NCBI GenBank assembly: GCA_024275955.1
Contig: JAJRYD010000005.1
Span: 7,480 to 71,479 of the forward strand
DNA: 64,000 nucleotides
Reading direction: 5' to 3'
From: Nitrospirota bacterium
GTDB lineage: Bacteria; Nitrospinota_A; UBA7883; JACRGQ01
Shown piece after piece: positions 51,001 to 63,000 of the stretch. How positions within the stretch are numbered: the first letter of the stretch is position 1; each line of letters starts with the position of its first letter. A program made the position numbers.

Positions 51001-54000
51001 ATCCATACCTGCATGGAGGCACATACCGGAAAAATAGCCTACGAAACAAAAAAGAGATACGGGAAAAAGCCGAATTTTGAGCCGCTACCTGAGATAATCA
51101 AAATTACGGCATTCCCTGCCGATGGCAAGCAATTAGAAATAATGACAGACGAAGATGGCTACCTTAAAGTCTGGCTTTTAAAGGAAGAATGGTTTGGCGA
51201 ACGGTTTTTTTACCACCTTGCCCAGATAGTTGAAAGAGCTGGCCAGTACAAACCTGTTTCAAGCTTTTTTGGCTACATACTGTTATTCCTATGGCTGGCT
51301 GGAACTGTAGTGACAGCTTTTATTATAATAAGAGAAAAGCAGACGGAGCCTCTCTAGCATGAACTGGAAGAAAACTTTACGCCTAGCTTTAATATTGTCG
51401 CTCACTGTTTTTTTCGTCCACCGTTTCACTATGGATCTACATTTCTTTAGCGTTACGGAAAGGTTTGAAAGGCCGCAGCCGGTAAAGATACCAAAAGGGC
51501 TAACCGGCATAAGCGCGAAAGACTGCGGTACCTGCCACGAGGAGATTTACAACGAATGGAAAACGACAATTCACTCGCAGGCATGGACAGACCCCTATTT
51601 CCAAGTAGACTTTAAATACGACCGTTACCCGCAGATATGCCTTAACTGCCATACACCGCTTGAAAACCAGCAAGAGAACCTTGTTACAGGCTTTAGCGAC
51701 GAGGCGAAGTTCCGCCCAATCCTTGAGCCAAACCCTAACTTCGACCCAGAACTGAGAGACGAAGGGGTGACATGCGCCGTATGCCATATAAAGGACGGCG
51801 TTATAGTCGGCTCGTACGACATAGAAACAACAGCCCACCCAGTCCGCAAATACGAGCGGTTTTTGGACGGCAGAGGTATCTGTCAAAGGTGCCATATGGT
51901 ACCTAGCGTAAACAGGTGGGATTACTTTCTAAAACTTCCGCCGTGTGGAAATTTTGCGGAAATAGAAGCAGGAGGCAAAAAAGCCGACTGCGTTAAATGC
52001 CATATGCCGGAGGTAGAAAGGCCACTCGTGGAAGACGGCCCTGTGCGAAAAACAGGCAGGCACTTCTGGCGCGGCGGACACGACCCGAAGATGGTAAAAA
52101 AAGCGGCAGAGATAACACTGGCAGAAAACAGCTCCGCAAATAAAAAAACTTTTACGCTCCATATAAAGAACGCAGGCACGGAACACCGCTTCCCCACAGG
52201 AACTCCAGACCGTCACTTAAGAATACTATTCAGGCTTCTGGATGAAAAAGGAAACGTAATAAAAGAAAAGAAACGTTTTATAGAAAGAACAATTCTCTGG
52301 AGACCGTTTATAGCCGATATATACGATAACCGCATCCGATACCTAGAAACCGCTTCGTATTCGTTTAGCCTAAAGGCCGGAGAGGGCGCTTTCCTAGAAG
52401 CAGAGGTAAGGTACGGCCTGTTGCGTGAAAGCCGAAGAAGGCGCATAGGGTACGAAAACAGCGAGCCTATCCACTACCGTATCTTTTACAAAAAGGTTCC
52501 GCTTTAGCCGACACGCCCGCACAGCTTGACAGCTTTTTAGCTTCGCTGTTACTAACTAGCAGGCACCCCGATACCCTGCTTCGCACCCCTTTTCATAGTC
52601 GGCCTTAGCCTTACCCATCTCACCCATTATTTCGTTTGCCTGCCCGCGCACATAGTATGCCTCGCCCAGCTTTGGGTCAAGTTCTATCGCTTTATTGAGG
52701 TCTTTAAACGCGCCGTCGATATCTCCGGTATCTTTCTTCGCTTTTCCTCTAAGCGCGTATGCCGGAGCATACTTGGCATCTTCTATAATAGCCTTATTGG
52801 TAAGGTCGATAACTTTGGAATAGTTGGCGCTTCCATACGCGCCGCGCGCCTCTTGGACAAGACCTTTTACCTTCTTAGACGGACCACCGCCAAAAACGCC
52901 AAAATCAAAAGCCGAGGCTCCTGTAGCAAAAAAAGTAACGAGTGCCAGAAACAGTGTAAACGTTCTTATATTCATTTTATATCCTTTCAGCATCTTCAGT
53001 TACCCCTATAGTAAAGCAAATCTCCGCACGAACAAAACCTGTTATTCCAATCAGCCTTTGCCATCCACCTTTCATTAGCACAGGCTGTTTTAGTTTTTCA
53101 GCCTCTCCAGCATCTTGACTATCGCCTTTCGCTCATCTTTAGAAGGACTCAGTGACAAAGCCTTTCTGTACAGTTTTTCGGCCTCCAGCGGGCGGTTAAG
53201 GCTGGAAGCATACAGCCCAGCCAGATTAACCAGACCTAGAAAATAGTTTTCTTCTACGCTTATAGCCGCCTTGAATTCCTGCTCCGCTTCAAGCGCCATC
53301 CCCGCTTTTGCAAAAAACATCCCCTTTAGAAAATGCAGTTGGGAGGCGAACCAGCCGTCACTGTCGAGACGCTCGGTGTCTTCAAGCATCCGCAACCCCA
53401 TCTCTGCCTTGCCGCTTGCCACCGCAGAGGTAATCGCCGAAAGGTTAAGAGTTATATTTGCGTATCTAGCGTCTAGGTTGTCGCTGTTGACTTTAAGCGA
53501 GCGGTTGTAATAACCGGCGGCGCGTCCTTTCTTTCCGTTGCTTTTTTCTACCTGCCCCGCAAAGAAGATAGACTGCGATTCAAAATACCTCTTAAATATA
53601 TCTCTTTGCCTGTCCGATGCAAAGAGGCCGTCGGGAAATTTGCGGTAGCGCAGTAAACCAGCAAGGTTATCACCTTTCACCGCCACACCCTCATCGCCTA
53701 CACGCGGAGAGGTAAACTCTACAACCGGCCAATCGTCGTACAAAGGTTTTACGCCGTCTACAAACTTTTTAAGCTGTTCCTTATTCATCATATAATCGGA
53801 GACAAGCTGGTAAACATTGGTAACGCCTATCTCCTCTAGGCTCGCTTTTATCTCCGGCTTTTCCATTCTTTCGCGGATTCTTTCGACATCAATGCCGATT
53901 TTATCGTCAGAGCCTATCATTATCGCGTCCCACTTCGTGTACCACATATCGACATACCGGAACGACTCGAGAAACGCGGCGACCAGCATTTTAAAATCAA

Positions 54001-60000: not shown

Positions 60001-63000
60001 TAGTGATCGCTGACCATAGAAAGTGCTTCCCTGCTTGTTATTTTTCCACCTTCTGAGATGAGGTCGTAAAACAGTTTGACGACCTCCTCCGGCGGGGTCT
60101 TTGGCAGTTCACCTTCAGTGGCCGGCTTTTCGTTATTGCTACTGCATCCATGCAAAAGAGCGACAGTCAGCAGAAGCAGGCTCAAAGTCTTTAATATTTT
60201 TTTCATAGTTCCCCTGCCAAGCCTAAAAAAGATAGGGCGGCTGTGCTTAACAGCACAGCCGCCCTTTAAGCTAGCAAAAATAAAAACTCTCTATATGGTA
60301 GGCTCGCTACCAGATTTAAGAGTGTTCCTAAGTTTGTTGGTTCCAACAAGCCATTCGGACTCGCCTTCGGAAAGAAGAAGCTCCTGCTCCGAGACTCTGT
60401 CGTAGTCGCCTACTCCAAGAGAAGCGGTGCCGCCCGGAGGATCAACAAAGAACGTTCCCCTCATCTCGAGATGAAGAGGTCCGCAGAAATGCTGACAATA
60501 GAACTCGAACTCACCAGCGACGTCGGCGGTGAACTCAGAGACCATCGACATACCACGAGGTCCGATAATCATGGTCTTTGGTCCGTAGTATCCGGCTATC
60601 ACCATACCCATAGTAACGTCCGGGTTCTTTGTAAGACCGGCCGCTTTATCTATGTTGGTAAAGATAATACGTACTTTAGCACCCTGAGGAACATGCAGGA
60701 ACCTCGGTACATAACCGTAAGAGAAAGCTTTGATACGCAGAACGTAAACATCGCCGTCTTTAGTCATGCCAGGCTTGCCGTTATCCCTCGGCACCCACCA
60801 CTTTTTCGCGTGATTGGTGTGGTGTGGCTCGATCTGAGGCCGTACTGGGCCTCTAAGGCCAGGGCGACCTTTGTCGTTGAATGAAATCTGAACATCACCC
60901 AAGCTATAGCCCTTAGTGAAGAGATCGTTACCTTTACCTGTATTCCATCTCTGGATGTAGGAAGCGAATATCTGGCGGCCTTCATGCGGCTCACCATCAA
61001 CAGGTATGATCTTGACACTCTTACCGTATGTTGGGCTGGTTTCGTCTATGTCCTGCAACTCAAAGTTAACAGCGAACACGATACCTGTAGGGGTAAAGAG
61101 TCCGGTTGAGAACTTGTTTTGAGAAACATAGTACGCGTTATCCGGCGCTATGGAATTGTGACCAACCCTGTAATGGATAGGGAACTCATCCACAAGCTGC
61201 ATCCTCTGCAGATCTACTTTGGAAGTAGAGTCAGACACGAAGCTCGATATGTAGTCGTACTTACCAAGCGTATCTATCTGGTTGTGCAGTGGGCCGGCGC
61301 CAACAGGTATAACTCTGTGAACTTTGAGCTTCTCAACATCTATTATAGAAAGAGTAGCCGAAAGCTTATCACAAACAGTAACGATTCTGCCTGTTGGGCT
61401 AACATTGGTACCGTGCGGGTTTTTACCAACTGGAATCTCTTTAATCAGCTTAAAAGGATTCTGGCTGAAAACCATTACCGCGGAGTGGTAATAGTTGCCC
61501 GAGAAAACGTATTTTCCGTTTCTACCGGTATCTGGGTAATCCGGCGCAGATGGCGCAGGTGGAATATCCAGAACAGTGGTAGCACCATCAGAAAGCCTGA
61601 GTTTCAGCATTTTACCTGTGAGCTCGCCAGTGGCGAACAGGTATTTACCGTTCGGAGAAAGCGCGGCACTGTGGTGGATACCAAAAGGTTTTGGAAGAGC
61701 AAAAATTCTCTCTGTCCAACCTGTCTGGAGGTTCACCTCCGCGATAGTGTCCGAACCTTTATCTGAAACATAAAGGTATTTTCCATCTGGAGTACCGTTG
61801 TTGTTTCCTGCGTTAGATCCCGAAAACGGGAAGTTGTGCAGATCAACACCGGTTCTTATATGTCTATATGTCCTCATCGACGGGATACCGATAACGCCTA
61901 TGGCACCATCAACGCCGCCAGCGTCGTATAGTATCGCGTAGTCACGCAGAGGGGCATCATTGTCCATTCCCTCAACAACGTGCCAATCACGTTTATCGAA
62001 ATCCGTAAGGACGACCTTCTTAGCGTCAGCAGGTACTGCACAAAGCAGTAGCGCCACAGCCAAAGAAAGGCTTAATATCATCCTTTTCTTCAAAGTAACT
62101 CACCCCCTCAATTATCGTTCGTGTTTGTAGTAGGATCCTGCCGCGGCATCCGCCGCGAGTCTCTTTACTAGATAGTCATTCGGATCAAGAATGTCTATCC
62201 TGCGTGCCTGCCATTTCTTATCCTTGTAGTACCCGAAAGCGGCGATAAGATCGCCTTTCTTCAGCTCCTTGAACTTCTTGAACTCACCACGATTTGCAGT
62301 CATGACATAGCCTTCTTTGTGAAGAACCAATTTATACTTCTTGGATTTCTTCTCAAATTTAGTAGCTATAGTAAGCTTACGATTACCAATTTTAACTATC
62401 TCGCCAATATGCATGTTGTCGGTAATACTGGAACCGTTACCGAGAACACCAGCCGAAGCCGGCGCAGTCTGAGTCCCCAAAAAGAGACCCAAGGCAAAAA
62501 CAGTTGCAAGAACAAAATTTATCTTTTTCACTAGCTCACCCCCCTTCAAGATAATTACTTTTAAAAATACAATCTTTAAAAAATGCTCTATCCGATGCAT
62601 AAAGCCCCACCATTAACCCAAGTATCTACTGCAATCCATATGCCAAAAAAACATTAAATAGCTAGATAGTTACACTAACTAACTTCCCCTAAATCAGTAT
62701 ACTACAGCTATGATAATTCCTAAATCAAGCTTTAAAAACCGCAAAATCACACCAAAAATGCGGGGTTTTGAATATCTCCAATACTACCTTAAATTCCAAT
62801 GCGTTAAAGAGAGTAGAAACTTTCTCTATCTCCTTAATTATTCAAAAAACATCCGCAACATTTCGTTAATAGTTAACGAAACGCTCTACCCTATTTCGTC
62901 GATTTATTTACTTACCTACCAATAACTTAGAGGCCAAATCCGGCCTGAGCTGAGCAAGCTTACTCAATTCTTCCAAAGCCTCTTTCTTCATTCCAAGCCT

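What the first reader, a model, noticed from the sequence alone, without database searches (positions are those of the whole stretch)
53090..62600. Tight nine-gene operon: NosZ-like Cu protein + Rieske-less split cytochrome b6/subunit-IV-cyt c + two Vgb/NHL propellers + MFS-SpeE-TPR fusion
All genes are on the minus strand with 4-nt or small overlaps running 62531 to 53090, so the operon structure is seen directly. Three functional groups are combined here. First, a beta-propeller/cupredoxin protein with a CuA-like C-x3-C-x3-H-x2-M motif, which is the NosZ architecture. Second, a di-heme cytochrome b6 and a subunit-IV::monoheme cytochrome c fusion with no Rieske protein. Third, two secreted Vgb-type propellers and a 962-aa MFS/spermidine-synthase-like/TPR fusion. 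Clade II nos clusters are known to carry cytochrome b and c genes, but here nosD/F/Y/L are absent and unrelated propellers are inserted. This looks like an undescribed quinol-linked periplasmic redox module rather than a canonical nos operon.
Basis: partly seen in the sequence, partly recalled or inferred. Interest (0 to 1): 0.78.

Follow-up and report, generated by a model that had tools for sequence, protein, structure and literature searches.

The report
Clade III nitrous-oxide reductase gene cluster
This is a Nitrospinota copy of the recently described "lactonase-type" (clade III) nitrous-oxide reductase gene cluster, with its own membrane cytochrome module and a conserved pair of propeller proteins instead of the classical nos helper genes; the enzyme family is already known, but what the helper proteins do is not.

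Summary
A co-directional minus-strand gene run really exists, although 53090-62531 contains eight genes; the ninth is a syntenic TPR gene at 52556-52993.

The 600-aa Cu protein is not canonical NosZ. It is also not undescribed: it belongs to clade III lactonase-type NosZ (L-NosZ; He et al., Nature 2025).
- It matches NCBIfam NF052460 at E 3e-180.
- It carries every motif used by the discovery study.
- Its AF2 model hits only NosZ structures.

The first gene is the published FESNov family NOV5WD8W.

Across 80 GTDB loci, L-nosZ–lipoprotein–cyt b–3TM/heme-c–propeller A–propeller B recurs in Nitrospinota, Nitrospirota, Delta-, Alpha- and Gammaproteobacteria and Magnetococcales. The propellers are therefore core components, not insertions.

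NOV5WD8W (also in one Nitrospirae-labelled locus), two MFS/SpeE/TPR paralogs and the TPR gene appear as add-ons essentially confined to Nitrospinota-type clusters.

No nosDFYLR gene was found in the 64-kb window, and no Rieske motif in the window or in any locus.

New details found here:
- a unique, conserved sigma-54 promoter upstream of NOV5WD8W;
- a positionally conserved terminator-like hairpin right after L-nosZ;
- Met replacing the canonical CuA His583 family-wide;
- no conserved CusF-type ligands in NOV5WD8W.

Verdict: a new member of a known kind, of moderate interest.

The parts
62908..64000 (-). C-terminal part (SpeE-like + TPR) of a second MFS/spermidine-synthase/TPR paralog; the reading frame runs off the window end
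   Evidence: There is no in-frame stop up to base 64000. It gives Spermine_synth and TPR hits. Nitrospinota loci have a full-length paralog (934 aa in L081) at this position.
62630..62645 (-). Sigma-54-type promoter TGGCAT-N5-TTGCA, 114 nt upstream of the NOV5WD8W start
   Evidence: It is the only match to TGGYAYN5TTGCW in 64 kb on both strands; 0.17 are expected by chance. A slightly looser form of the motif lies upstream of the NOV5 gene in 19 of 28 related loci. rpoN is in the window at 642-2087. A sigma-54 activator sits two genes upstream in relatives.
62112..62531 (-). NOV5WD8W-family small secreted protein (139 aa from GTG 62531, which has a strong RBS)
   Evidence: NF052405 scores 199 bits against a cutoff of 170. 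Start and RBS were read. It has a signal-peptide-like N-terminus. The family is described next to NosZ in PMC10849945.
60291..62093 (-). L-nosZ: clade III lactonase-type nitrous-oxide reductase homologue. It has a Sec-type signal peptide, a 7-bladed propeller with a His set, and a C-terminal CuA-type cupredoxin.
   Evidence: NF052460 gives E 3.4e-180 and 599.7 bits. Motifs were read. NosZ structures are hit at E 7e-23 by sequence and 9e-38 by profile. The AF2 model has pLDDT 74, and the top 50 Foldseek PDB hits are all NosZ.
60234..60265 (-). Terminator-like hairpin (14-bp stem, 10 GC pairs, T-run) in the 84-nt spacer after L-nosZ
   Evidence: Found. The spacer folds at -44 kcal/mol, and a GC-rich hairpin with a different sequence sits at the same place in most of the loci that could be examined.
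59682..60206 (-). Lipoprotein of unknown family (lipobox LLHGC)
   Evidence: Sequence. It has no Pfam or NCBIfam family. It directly follows L-nosZ in 49 of 80 loci across phyla. It has no conserved Cys, His or Met apart from the lipobox.
59030..59665 (-). Di-heme cytochrome b6-type subunit. The likely start is ATG 59665; the longest ORF starts at 59752.
   Evidence: PF00033 scores 104.5 bits. The best PDB hits are cytochrome b6, at E 1.7e-35 over the full length. H116, H130, H212 and H227 are conserved in at least 90% of 40 orthologues. The position of the b6 heme-ci Cys appears to be Tyr (read by eye and from memory of the b6 sequence; not aligned with a tool).
58312..59025 (-). 3-TM membrane protein with a PEW(Y) loop motif and a C-terminal mono-heme c domain (CDSCH); putative subunit-IV::cytochrome c fusion
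   Evidence: It has three TM helices. Invariant features are PEW, CxxCH and a C-terminal YKDANWQxRHxYEPTxTW. The hhalign alignment to PetD is colinear but weak. It has no Pfam or PDB hit.
57006..58334 (-). Propeller A: Vgb_lyase-family beta-propeller with an N-terminal signal and a C-terminal TM anchor
   Evidence: PF24684 scores 166.8 bits. The C-terminal TM is present in 29 of 35 orthologues. It forms an orthogroup distinct from propeller B.
55975..57009 (-). Propeller B: secreted soluble Vgb_lyase-family beta-propeller
   Evidence: PF24684 scores 173.4 bits. None of 36 orthologues has a C-terminal TM. It forms a distinct orthogroup.
53090..55978 (-). 962-aa fused MFS-like membrane domain / spermidine-synthase-like domain / TPR
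   Evidence: NF037959 scores 113.9 bits against a cutoff of 40, with PF01564 and TPR hits. It has many TM segments in residues 1-466. It is syntenic only in Nitrospinota loci.
52556..52993 (-). Small secreted TPR protein, last gene of the run
   Evidence: TPR Pfam hits. Detected at this position in 10 Nitrospinota loci.

Best explanation
The region is the clade III (lactonase-type) nitrous-oxide reductase gene cluster of a Nitrospinota bacterium.

Shown:
- The 600-aa protein is an L-NosZ family member. It has a NosZ-like propeller-plus-cupredoxin fold, a Sec signal peptide, a CuA-type C-x3-C-x3-H-x2-M site and seven invariant His at the starts of the first strands of propeller blades 1, 2 (two His), 4, 5, 6 and 7.
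- It is followed, as in many phyla, by a lipoprotein, a di-heme cytochrome b6-type subunit, a 3-TM/mono-heme-c subunit and two distinct Vgb-type propellers, one of them membrane-anchored.
- The Nitrospinota version adds NOV5WD8W in front and MFS/SpeE/TPR proteins on both flanks.

Inferred mechanism:
- A two-component sensor and a sigma-54 activator, encoded just beyond the window edge in relatives, fire the sigma-54 promoter at 62630-62645.
- NOV5WD8W and L-nosZ are transcribed at a high level. The hairpin after L-nosZ terminates or stabilises most transcripts, and read-through supplies the lower-abundance membrane and accessory genes.
- (Mena)quinol is oxidised by the Rieske-less cyt b / 3-TM subunit pair.
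- Electrons pass to the periplasmic heme c domain, then to CuA of L-NosZ, then to the CuZ-type centre, where N2O is reduced to N2.
- The lipoprotein and the anchored/soluble propeller pair have no conserved metal ligands. They most likely tether, scaffold or help mature L-NosZ at the membrane, taking over some of the roles that NosR and NosDFYL play for clade I/II enzymes.
For: Family membership:
- NF052460 L-NosZ gives E 3.4e-180, against 164 and 120 bits for the clade II and clade I models.
- All discovery-study motifs quoted are present: CX2FCX3HXEM, GXHH, PHG, GPLH and EPH.
- Length is 600 aa.
- Nitrospinota are named hosts of clade III.

Fold:
- PDB hits are NosZ only.
- The AF2 model has pLDDT 74, and the top 50 Foldseek hits are all NosZ at E 1e-28.

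Ligand mapping:
- Query residues map to P. stutzeri NosZ as follows: H140=H178, H227=H326, H270=H382, H312=H433, H370=H494, and C533/C537/H541/M544 = C618/C622/H626/M629.
- H86, H140/H141, H227, H270, H312 and H370 each sit at the start of the first strand of a blade.

Synteny:
- Every Nitrospinota-type locus with enough flank keeps the whole gene set, except L015.
- 25 of 35 non-Nitrospinota loci with at least 7 kb of flank have the propeller pair within 10 kb.
- Most loci outside Beta- and Zetaproteobacteria keep lipoprotein, cyt b and the heme-c subunit in the same order.
- Propeller A and propeller B are separate orthogroups across phyla, 31 of 33.

Electron module:
- Four invariant His in cyt b.
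- Best PDB hits are b6.
- Three TM helices plus invariant PEW and CxxCH.
- No Rieske motif in the window or in any of the 80 loci.

Regulation:
- The sigma-54 motif is unique in the window and conserved in 19 of 28 loci.
- rpoN is in the window.
- The histidine kinase and sigma-54 response regulator are conserved upstream in relatives.
- The hairpin after L-nosZ is conserved in position.

Other:
- No nos accessory family among the roughly 50 window ORFs scanned.
- Citing papers report that clade III NosZ is active, is inhibited by acetylene and lacks canonical nos accessory genes.
Against: - The Nitrospinota subclade scores 566-609 bits on NF052460, below NCBI's trusted cutoff of 700. Proteobacterial members score 770-804. 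The subclade has a roughly 22-aa linker insertion and a C-terminal extension.
- The canonical CuA ligand His583 is Met495 in the whole family. The blade-1 HH pair is H-N here. The copper sites may therefore differ from canonical ones.
- No activity data exist for this protein. The primary paper (He et al. 2025) could not be read here, so I do not know which members were tested or how much of the cluster it already describes.
- The subunit IV assignment is weak. How a b6-type complex would work without a Rieske protein is unknown.
- A Rieske protein and nosDFYL could be encoded elsewhere in the genome.
- The roles of the propellers, the lipoprotein and the MFS/SpeE/TPR proteins are pure inference.
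- The hairpin after L-nosZ could mean that the downstream genes form a separate transcription unit.
Confidence: 0.75

Rival explanations
1. One reading: a previously undescribed quinol-linked periplasmic redox module whose Cu protein only resembles NosZ and acts on some other substrate. On this view the propellers and the MFS fusion are unrelated functions that happen to be inserted.
For: No nosDFYLR gene is nearby. The L-NosZ model score is below its trusted cutoff. His583 is Met and the blade-1 HH pair is H-N. The accessory proteins have no characterised homologues.
Against: The family is described and named as clade III L-NosZ, and Nitrospinota are explicitly included. All diagnostic motifs are present. 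The Met-for-His583 change and the absence of the blade-1 HH pair are family-wide, including in members that pass the cutoff. The propeller pair is co-inherited with L-nosZ across phyla.
Confidence: 0.08
2. The Nitrospinota subclade is a neofunctionalised offshoot of L-NosZ, for example with a different electron acceptor or a protective rather than respiratory role. Its lineage-specific partners (NOV5WD8W and two MFS/SpeE/TPR proteins) would reflect that new role.
For: The subclade forms a distinct block at 49-60% identity to other members. It has its own linker insertion and C-terminal extension, and Asn instead of Glu after H86. It scores consistently below cutoff, at 566-609 bits. Its add-on genes are near-exclusive to it.
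Against: All predicted metal ligands and about 150 invariant positions are shared with the rest of the family. The core partners (lipoprotein, cyt b, heme-c subunit, propellers A and B) are the same. The literature counts Nitrospinota sequences as clade III nosZ.
Confidence: 0.1
3. Two independent units lie side by side: NOV5WD8W-L-nosZ, ended by its own terminator, and a separate seven-gene membrane/propeller operon with an unrelated function.
For: A strong terminator-like hairpin lies directly after L-nosZ. In Betaproteobacteria L-nosZ is next to other cytochromes, and the propeller pair sits 8-10 kb away on the other strand.
Against: The order L-nosZ-lipoprotein-cyt b-heme-c subunit-propeller A-propeller B is kept across Nitrospinota, Nitrospirota, Delta-, Alpha- and Gammaproteobacteria and Magnetococcales. 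The spacer is only 84 nt, with no better promoter match than elsewhere. Even where the electron module is swapped, the propellers stay within about 10 kb. A hairpin after a highly expressed first gene is a common way of setting transcript ratios within an operon (general knowledge).
Confidence: 0.07

Closest known systems
Clade III lactonase-type nitrous-oxide reductase, L-NosZ (He et al., Nature 2025; NCBIfam NF052460)
   Same: It is the best-matching family model (E 3e-180). All diagnostic motifs are present and the length fits. It has a Sec signal, the NosZ fold and a neighbourhood without nosDFYL but with cytochromes. The host phylum is one named for clade III.
   Different: The Nitrospinota subclade scores about 100 bits below the NCBI trusted cutoff. 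It has a longer propeller-cupredoxin linker, a longer C-terminus and H-N instead of H-E after blade-1 His86. Its cluster carries add-ons that are near-exclusive to Nitrospinota: NOV5WD8W, two MFS/SpeE/TPR proteins and a small TPR protein.
Canonical NosZ clade I (TAT) and clade II (Sec), with nosR/nosDFYL or nosB/G/H/C accessory genes
   Same: Both have a seven-bladed propeller plus a C-terminal cupredoxin. The C-x3-C-x3-H-x2-M CuA motif and the His ligands equivalent to H178, H326, H382, H433 and H494 are shared. Export is Sec-dependent, as in clade II. Clade II clusters also carry cytochrome genes (established knowledge).
   Different: Sequence identity is only about 20%. TIGR04244 and TIGR04246 score 120 and 164 bits against a cutoff of 625. 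His583 is replaced by Met, and the HH pair is on blade 2 (GIHH) rather than blade 1. None of the scanned window ORFs matched NosD, NosF, NosY, NosL or NosR.
Cytochrome b6f / Firmicute-type b6c complexes (PetB+PetD; QcrB+QcrC, in which subunit IV is fused to cytochrome c)
   Same: The cytochrome b is split. The b6-length subunit has four His and is closest to PetB. The next gene encodes three TM helices with a PEWY-type loop motif and a C-terminal heme c domain, the QcrC-like arrangement (the QcrC comparison is from general knowledge).
   Different: No Rieske subunit is found anywhere in the neighbourhood in 80 genomes. The heme-ci Cys position of b6 appears to be Tyr (read by eye, not aligned). 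The 3-TM subunit matches no PetD or Cytochrom_B_C model, and the hhalign probability is only 9%.
NOV5WD8W FESNov family (Rodriguez del Rio et al., Nature 2023/24; NCBIfam NF052405), proposed CusF-like copper chaperone replacing NosL
   Same: Gene 1 passes the NF052405 cutoff and sits directly upstream of the NosZ-type gene, exactly as described.
   Different: In 26 orthologues no Met, His, Cys or Trp set comparable to the CusF ligands His36, Met47, Met49 and Trp44 is conserved (those ligands are cited from memory). The conserved residues are mostly Gly, Lys, Arg, Asp, Glu and aromatics. The chaperone idea is therefore not supported by ligand conservation.
Virginiamycin B lyase (Vgb) / NHL-type six- or seven-bladed propellers
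   Same: Pfam PF24684 matches well above cutoff for both proteins.
   Different: NCBIfam Vgb(A) and Vgb(B) score about 120 bits against a cutoff of 600. Neither orthogroup has a conserved His. Both are secreted or membrane-anchored and always occur next to L-nosZ. They share the fold, not the enzyme function.

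Membership tests
Clade III lactonase-type NosZ (L-NosZ) | Significant match to an L-NosZ HMM (the discovery-study criterion is E < 1e-5) that is better than the match to the clade I/II models | tested here: met
   NF052460 gives E 3.4e-180 and 599.7 bits over profile positions 2-479 of 480. 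TIGR04246 gives 164 bits and TIGR04244 gives 120 bits. The authors' own HMM was not available.
Clade III lactonase-type NosZ (L-NosZ) | Score above NCBIfam's curated equivalog cutoff (700 bits) | tested here: not met
   The window protein scores 599.7 bits. Other Nitrospinota members score 566-609, Deltaproteobacteria 690-733, and Alpha- and Gammaproteobacteria 770-804. The shortfall is shared by the whole Nitrospinota subclade. It coincides with the subclade's linker insertion.
Clade III lactonase-type NosZ (L-NosZ) | [quoted passage not shown] | tested here: met
   The protein is 600 aa. It has C533-QH-F-C537-GPL-H541-L-E-M544, G138-I-H140-H141, P226-H227-G228, G267-P-L-H270 and E368-P-H370. 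All are invariant in 24 family members.
Clade III lactonase-type NosZ (L-NosZ) | NosZ-like fold (beta-propeller plus cupredoxin) | tested here: met
   The AF2 model has pLDDT 74 and pTM 0.77. The top 50 Foldseek PDB hits are all NosZ, at E about 1e-28.
Clade III lactonase-type NosZ (L-NosZ) | Catalyses N2O reduction | not testable with these tools
   Only citing papers could be read. The primary paper is not held.
Canonical NosZ clade I / clade II | Passes TIGR04244 or TIGR04246, and nosDFYL (plus nosR or nosB) lie in the cluster | tested here: not met
   The models score 120 and 164 bits against a cutoff of 625. No NosD, NosF, NosY, NosL or NosR family was hit among the roughly 50 window ORFs scanned.
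Canonical NosZ clade I / clade II | Full canonical CuA ligand set, including the His equivalent to P. stutzeri H583 | tested here: not met
   H583 aligns with Met495 (DVTMG). This Met is invariant in all 24 L-NosZ sequences aligned.
Cytochrome b6 / b N-terminal domain | PF00033 match and four heme-ligating His in helices B and D | tested here: met
   PF00033 scores 104.5 bits against a cutoff of 27.2. H116, H130, H212 and H227 are conserved in at least 90% of 40 orthologues. The best PDB hit is cytochrome b6 at E 1.7e-35.
Subunit IV (PetD / C-terminal cytochrome b domain) | Homology to PetD or PF00032, three TM helices and a PEWY motif in the loop between TM1 and TM2 | tested here: inconclusive
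   It has three TM helices. PEW is invariant, with PEWY in most members and PEWV here. None of 17 members hits PF00032, and the profile gives no PDB hit. The hhalign alignment to PetD is colinear, but E is 0.0036 and probability 9%. The AF2 model is too poor to use, at pLDDT 54.
Rieske/cytochrome b complexes (bc1, b6f) | A Rieske [2Fe-2S] subunit is encoded with the cytochrome b | tested here: not met
   No CxHxG[C/A]...CxxH motif occurs in any ORF of at least 70 aa in the 80 related loci (about 10 kb of flank where available), and the looser CxH...CxxH search found nothing real in the window. The rest of the genome is not visible.
NOV5WD8W family | Passes NF052405 and lies adjacent to a NosZ-type gene | tested here: met
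   It scores 199.1 bits against a cutoff of 170. It lies 18 nt upstream of L-nosZ, as described.
CusF-like copper chaperone (the role proposed for NOV5WD8W) | A conserved Met/His (plus Trp) Cu(I) site | tested here: not met
   M62, H63 and M98 of the window protein vary among 26 orthologues. No Met, His or Cys reaches 90% conservation.
Virginiamycin B lyase | Passes the Vgb equivalog models and has conserved catalytic His/Glu residues | tested here: not met
   There is only a Pfam family-level hit. NF000022 and NF000096 score about 120 bits against a cutoff of 600. Neither orthogroup has a conserved His.
Fused MFS/spermidine synthase (NF037959) | Passes the NF037959 subfamily model | tested here: met
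   It scores 113.9 bits against a cutoff of 40, and PF01564 scores 36 bits against 22.9. Enzymatic competence was not tested.

The most novel reading that the evidence does not exclude
The cluster encodes a self-contained, membrane-bound quinol:N2O oxidoreductase. A Rieske-less b6-type cytochrome and a subunit-IV-like heme-c protein feed L-NosZ directly. The ancient pair of Vgb-fold propellers (one membrane-anchored) and the lipoprotein form a new assembly and tethering machinery. That machinery would replace NosR and NosDFYL, so the CuZ-type centre would be built by a route unrelated to the only one known.
Probability: 0.3. Interest if true: 0.7.

Novelty: new member of a known kind. Interest (0 to 1): 0.4.

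Why it matters
N2O reductase is the only known biological sink for a major greenhouse gas. Clade III enzymes were recognised only in 2025. How they receive electrons, and how their copper-sulfide centre is built without NosDFYL, appears to be unresolved (I could not read the primary paper).

This window gives a clean, complete example of the Nitrospinota version. The comparison made here narrows the candidates.
- The lipoprotein, the b6-type cytochrome, the heme-c subunit and two distinct propellers are the recurrent partners across phyla.
- The electron module can be swapped: in the one betaproteobacterial locus examined, L-nosZ is flanked by a cyt bd-like protein and c-type cytochromes instead.
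- The propellers stay nearby even then.
- NOV5WD8W lacks the ligands expected of a copper chaperone.

These are directly testable hypotheses for anyone working on clade III NosZ. The family itself, however, is no longer a discovery.

Tried and rejected
- Reading the primary paper (He et al. 2025) by DOI and by PMID: it is not held. What that paper says about accessory genes is known only through citing papers. The supplement of PMC13477213 is not held either.
- Fetching the window's own contig through P0001: no record. The cluster look-up gave no accession or name.
- Testing the subunit IV assignment of the 3-TM/heme-c protein:
  - phmmer and a 17-sequence profile against the PDB gave only chance hits;
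  - Pfam on all 17 members gave no Cytochrom_B_C hit;
  - AF2 with a 25-sequence alignment gave pLDDT 54, too poor for a fold search, so none was run;
  - hhalign against PetD was colinear but weak.
- Testing the published CusF-like chaperone idea for NOV5WD8W by ligand conservation: not supported.
- Looking for metal-binding residues in the propellers and the lipoprotein: none are conserved.
- Searching for homologues of the lipoprotein: 16 unnamed hits with no Pfam domain.
- Rfam and tRNA scans: nothing in the cluster.
- Repeat search for enhancer-like sites upstream of the sigma-54 promoter: only weak repeats.
- The sigma-70 promoter scan was not above background.
- The HH129/130 region of canonical NosZ aligns ambiguously with L-NosZ.

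Full report
**1. What is in the sequence**

The ORF listing shows a run of minus-strand ORFs:
- 62112-62600: the real start is most likely GTG 62531, preceded by GAAGGGGGGTGA, giving 139 aa
- 60291-62093: 600 aa
- 59682-60206: 174 aa
- 59030-59752: the likely start is ATG 59665, giving 211 aa
- 58312-59064: NCBI's call, and mine, is ATG 59025, giving 237 aa (P0121)
- 57006-58334: 442 aa
- 55975-57009: 344 aa
- 53090-55978: 962 aa
- 52556-52993: 145 aa

The junctions are 18 nt, 84 nt, 16 nt, 4 nt, a 23-nt overlap, a 4-nt overlap, a 4-nt overlap and 96 nt. The ninth is the small TPR gene just outside that span.

The frame at 62908-64000 has no stop up to the window end. It is the C-terminal part of a further gene.

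**2. Identity of each product**

*The 600-aa protein.* Pfam gives YNCE/lactonase propeller, nos_propeller and cupredoxin hits. NCBIfam gives NF052460 'clade III lactonase-type nitrous-oxide reductase (L-NosZ)' at E 3.4e-180 and 599.7 bits over essentially the whole model. The clade II model scores 164 bits and the clade I model 120 bits.

*The other products.*
- The first gene passes NF052405 'NOV5WD8W family nitrogen cycling protein' (199 bits, cutoff 170).
- The 240-aa ORF is a cytochrome b/b6 (PF00033, 104 bits). Its closest solved relatives are cytochrome b6 (E 1.7e-35, full length).
- Both propellers match PF24684 Vgb_lyase well above cutoff. They fall far below the Vgb equivalog cutoffs.
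- The 962-aa protein passes NF037959 'fused MFS/spermidine synthase' and ends in TPR repeats.
- The 174-aa lipoprotein and the 237-aa 3-TM/CxxCH protein match no family.

**3. The family is known**

Papers held in the library describe a clade III, lactonase-type NosZ. It was discovered by He et al. (Nature 2025;646:152).

[quoted passage not shown] It is reported as active and inhibited by acetylene. It is found in Nitrospinota, Nitrospirota, Desulfobacterota, Pseudomonadota and Myxococcota. Its clusters lack canonical nos accessory genes and have cytochrome- and transporter-related neighbours.

[quoted passage not shown] The window protein has all of them: C533QHFC537GPLH541LEM544, G138IHH141, P226HG, G267PLH270 and E368PH370. 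They are invariant in my 24-sequence alignment.

NOV5WD8W was described in the FESNov catalogue. There it is noted as directly adjacent to a NosZ gene, as folding like CusF, and as a possible substitute for NosL.

I could not read He et al. itself.

**4. Fold and metal sites**

Sequence and profile searches of the PDB hit only NosZ at high significance (E 7e-23 and 9e-38). The AF2 model (pLDDT 74, pTM 0.77) retrieves NosZ structures as all of its top 50 Foldseek hits (E about 1e-28). The TM-score is about 0.49; a different domain orientation in the monomer model is a likely reason, but I did not test this.

The HMMER alignments map query residues to P. stutzeri NosZ as follows:
- H140 = H178
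- H227 = H326
- H270 = H382
- H312 = H433
- H370 = H494
- C533, C537, H541 and M544 = C618, C622, H626 and M629

The canonical CuA ligand H583 aligns with Met495 (DVTMG). This Met is invariant in every L-NosZ I aligned.

The canonical blade-1 pair H129/H130 has no clear counterpart, and the two alignments disagree there. Combining the invariant His list with the model's strand pattern places the following residues at the start of the first strand of successive blades:
- H86 (blade 1)
- H140 and H141 (blade 2)
- H227 (blade 4)
- H270 (blade 5)
- H312 (blade 6)
- H370 (blade 7)

That gives seven His, the number that ligates CuZ. The doublet is shifted from blade 1 to blade 2, which agrees with the 'GXHH' alternative in the published motif list.

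The N-terminus (MKKRMILSLSLAVALLLCAVPADA) is Sec-type, not twin-arginine.

**5. Position within the family**

Homologues fall into two groups:
- a Nitrospinota block at about 67-87% identity for full-length members, which includes the exact protein on a 123-kb NCBI contig
- everything else at about 49-60%

On NF052460, Nitrospinota members score 566-609 bits, Deltaproteobacteria 690-733, and Alpha- and Gammaproteobacteria 770-804. The sub-cutoff score is therefore a property of the whole subclade. The subclade has a roughly 22-residue insertion in the propeller-cupredoxin linker and a longer C-terminus.

**6. Synteny**

A scan of one genome per GTDB species gave 157 loci, of which 80 were fetched. 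I ran tblastn with the window proteins against them.

*Nitrospinota-type loci (27 loci).*
- All keep NOV5WD8W-L-nosZ.
- Every one with enough flank, except L015, keeps lipoprotein-cyt b-heme-c subunit-propeller A-propeller B-MFS/SpeE/TPR.
- The TPR gene was detected in 10 of them.
- Most loci with enough upstream flank also have a second MFS/SpeE/TPR paralog immediately upstream.

*Other phyla.* Loci labelled Nitrospirae/Nitrospiria, Delta-, Alpha- and Gammaproteobacteria and Magnetococcales keep L-nosZ-lipoprotein-cyt b-heme-c subunit-propeller A-propeller B in the same order. They lack the MFS fusion, and all but one (L027, a weak 30% match) lack NOV5WD8W.

*Betaproteobacteria (Gallionella, Nitrosomonadales, Sulfuricellaceae) and Thiothrix.* The cyt b pair is absent. 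In the one locus examined in detail (L072), L-nosZ sits among a cyt bd-I-like protein and several c-type cytochromes. The two propellers are still present 8-10 kb away.

*Overall.* 25 of 35 non-Nitrospinota loci with at least 7 kb of flank have the propeller pair within 10 kb.

*The propellers.* A and B are separate orthologous groups: 31 of 33 non-Nitrospinota sequences are closer to the Nitrospinota protein at the same position. Propeller A carries a C-terminal TM helix in 29 of 35 cases; propeller B never does. The propellers are therefore an old, co-inherited part of the system, not an insertion.

**7. The electron module**

- The cyt b has four conserved His, spaced 13 and 14 residues apart.
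- The position of the b6 heme-ci cysteine appears to be Tyr. I read this by eye against the b6 sequence as I remember it; it was not aligned with a tool.
- The next protein has three TM helices and an invariant PEW motif between TM1 and TM2. Most members have PEWY; the window has PEWV.
- It also has invariant CxxCH and a strictly conserved C-terminal YKDANWQxRHxYEPTxTW.
- The topology puts the heme domain in the periplasm.

Homology to subunit IV could not be shown with HMMs or structure. A profile-sequence alignment to Chlamydomonas-type PetD is colinear (WP...PEWYF..FQ...P..PF) but statistically weak, at E 0.0036 and probability 9%. I first checked the PetD sequence against the PDB.

No Rieske motif occurs in any ORF of the window or of the 80 loci.

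**8. Regulation**

*Promoter.*
- The only match to TGGYAY-N5-TTGCW in the 64-kb window lies at 62630-62645 on the minus strand; 0.17 are expected by chance.
- It is 114 nt upstream of the NOV5WD8W start.
- A slightly looser form of the motif lies upstream of the NOV5 gene in 19 of 28 related loci. Several of the rest lack upstream sequence.
- rpoN is in the window.
- In relatives the genes upstream of the MFS paralog are FGE-sulfatase, a periplasmic binding protein, FGE-sulfatase, a dCache/HAMP histidine kinase and a sigma-54-dependent response regulator.
- The island therefore very probably continues beyond base 64000.

*Hairpin.* Directly after the L-nosZ stop there is a 14-bp, GC-rich hairpin with a T-run. 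A strong hairpin of unrelated sequence occupies the same position in most of the loci that could be examined. This argues for selection on the structure, as a terminator, attenuator or 3' stabiliser, rather than on the sequence.

**9. Accessory proteins**

At 90% conservation, none of the following has a conserved Cys, His or Met apart from the lipobox: propeller A, propeller B, the lipoprotein and NOV5WD8W. This has two consequences:
- It argues against a CusF-type Cu(I) site in NOV5WD8W.
- It argues against Vgb-like catalysis in the propellers.

It leaves scaffolding, tethering or chaperoning as the more likely roles. This is inference.

**10. The rest of the window**

The other ORFs of at least 150 aa encode housekeeping, LPS export, type IV pilus/T2SS and PEP-CTERM-related functions. 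There are also a PMT_2-like membrane protein and a multiheme cytochrome. No NosD, NosF, NosY, NosL or NosR family was hit.

**11. Verdict**

The interpretation correctly sensed a non-canonical, quinol-linked NosZ-type system. That system is now a described family (clade III L-NosZ), and this is one more Nitrospinota member of it.

Residual interest lies in four points:
- the uncharacterised but conserved partner proteins
- the Rieske-less b6-type module
- the Met-for-His CuA variant
- the sigma-54 and hairpin regulatory layout

Noticed in passing
L046:12582-14051 (+), Deltaproteobacteria MAG: A 489-aa protein lies between the cyt b and heme-c subunit genes of an L-nosZ cluster. It has a right-handed beta-helix (PF13229; NosD PF05048 at 39 bits, cutoff 23.6) fused to a C-terminal cytochrome c domain. 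Some clade III clusters therefore do carry a NosD-like module. Gaps of similar or smaller size at the same place in L029, L034, L058 and L060 were not examined.
   Followed up: partly
L072:4221-12794 and 19704-21662 (Nitrosomonadales MAG); similar layout in L052, L065, L068, L074, L076, L078: In Betaproteobacteria L-nosZ lacks the cyt b / heme-c pair. In L072 it is flanked by a cyt bd subunit-I-like protein, several c-type cytochromes and an EB_dh heme domain. The two Vgb-type propellers sit 8-10 kb away on the opposite strand. Between them lie radical-SAM/PCP_red, USP and amine-oxidase genes.
   Followed up: partly
L081:48-6379 and the same positions in L001, L003-L005, L007, L008, L010, L011, L024: A conserved block lies immediately upstream of the Nitrospinota cluster, beyond this window's right edge. 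It reads FGE-sulfatase, periplasmic binding protein, FGE-sulfatase, dCache/HAMP histidine kinase, sigma-54 response regulator. FGE-sulfatase-domain genes also lie near L-nosZ in L027, L044 and L047. They could be candidates for copper-site maturation (FGE-type proteins bind Cu, and nirV next to nirK is of this family; from memory, untested).
   Followed up: partly
L046:1695-2837, L058:3466-4527, L060:808-1953, L061:18529-19527, L067:18586-19572, L073:17562-18602: A second, more distant (24-33% identity) cyt b plus 3-TM/heme-c-like gene pair lies within 10 kb of the L-nosZ cluster in several deltaproteobacterial and Magnetococcales loci.
   Followed up: no
L015 (Nitrospinia OFTM173), 10 kb downstream of L-nosZ: This is the only Nitrospinota-type locus with a long flank that keeps NOV5WD8W-L-nosZ-lipoprotein-cyt b-heme-c subunit but shows no propellers or MFS fusion downstream.
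   Followed up: no
window 60291-60425 (residues 555-600 of L-NosZ): After the cupredoxin domain, all clade III sequences share a short tail motif (L559..G562-D563-Y564; G562 and Y564 are invariant). I do not recall an equivalent tail in canonical NosZ, and I did not check. It is low-confidence in the AF2 model and could be a docking element.
   Followed up: no
window 49292-52507 (+): Three co-directional genes converge on the cluster: a 476-aa PMT_2-like polytopic membrane protein, a 212-aa unknown protein with TM segments at both ends, and a 382-aa multiheme c-type cytochrome (c7/c554/MtrC-like hits). Whether they relate to the L-nosZ cluster was not tested. The relative L081 has a sigma-54 activator at that side instead.
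   Followed up: no
P0217 (347 aa, NCBI): This database protein combines a Cytochrome_B N-terminal Pfam domain with a full-length match to the 3-TM/heme-c protein. It may be a natural fusion of the two subunits, or a gene-calling artefact. If real, it supports the view that the 3-TM protein is the second half of a split cytochrome b.
   Followed up: no
window 642-2087 (-), 99-617 (-), 2097-4495 (-): These positions hold rpoN (sigma-54), a hibernation-promoting factor gene and lptB/lptA/lptC-like genes in the classical rpoN neighbourhood. This shows that the genome has the sigma factor needed for the predicted promoter.
   Followed up: yes
window 22434-23090 (-), 31127-31963 (-), 11995-13899 (-), 4949-6121 (-): Protein-sorting and exopolysaccharide-type genes are scattered through the window: a rhombosortase, an XrtA/PEP-CTERM-associated ATPase, an asparagine-synthase-type amidotransferase and response-regulator/TPR proteins. 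A tRNA-Gln lies at 48981-49054 (-).
   Followed up: no
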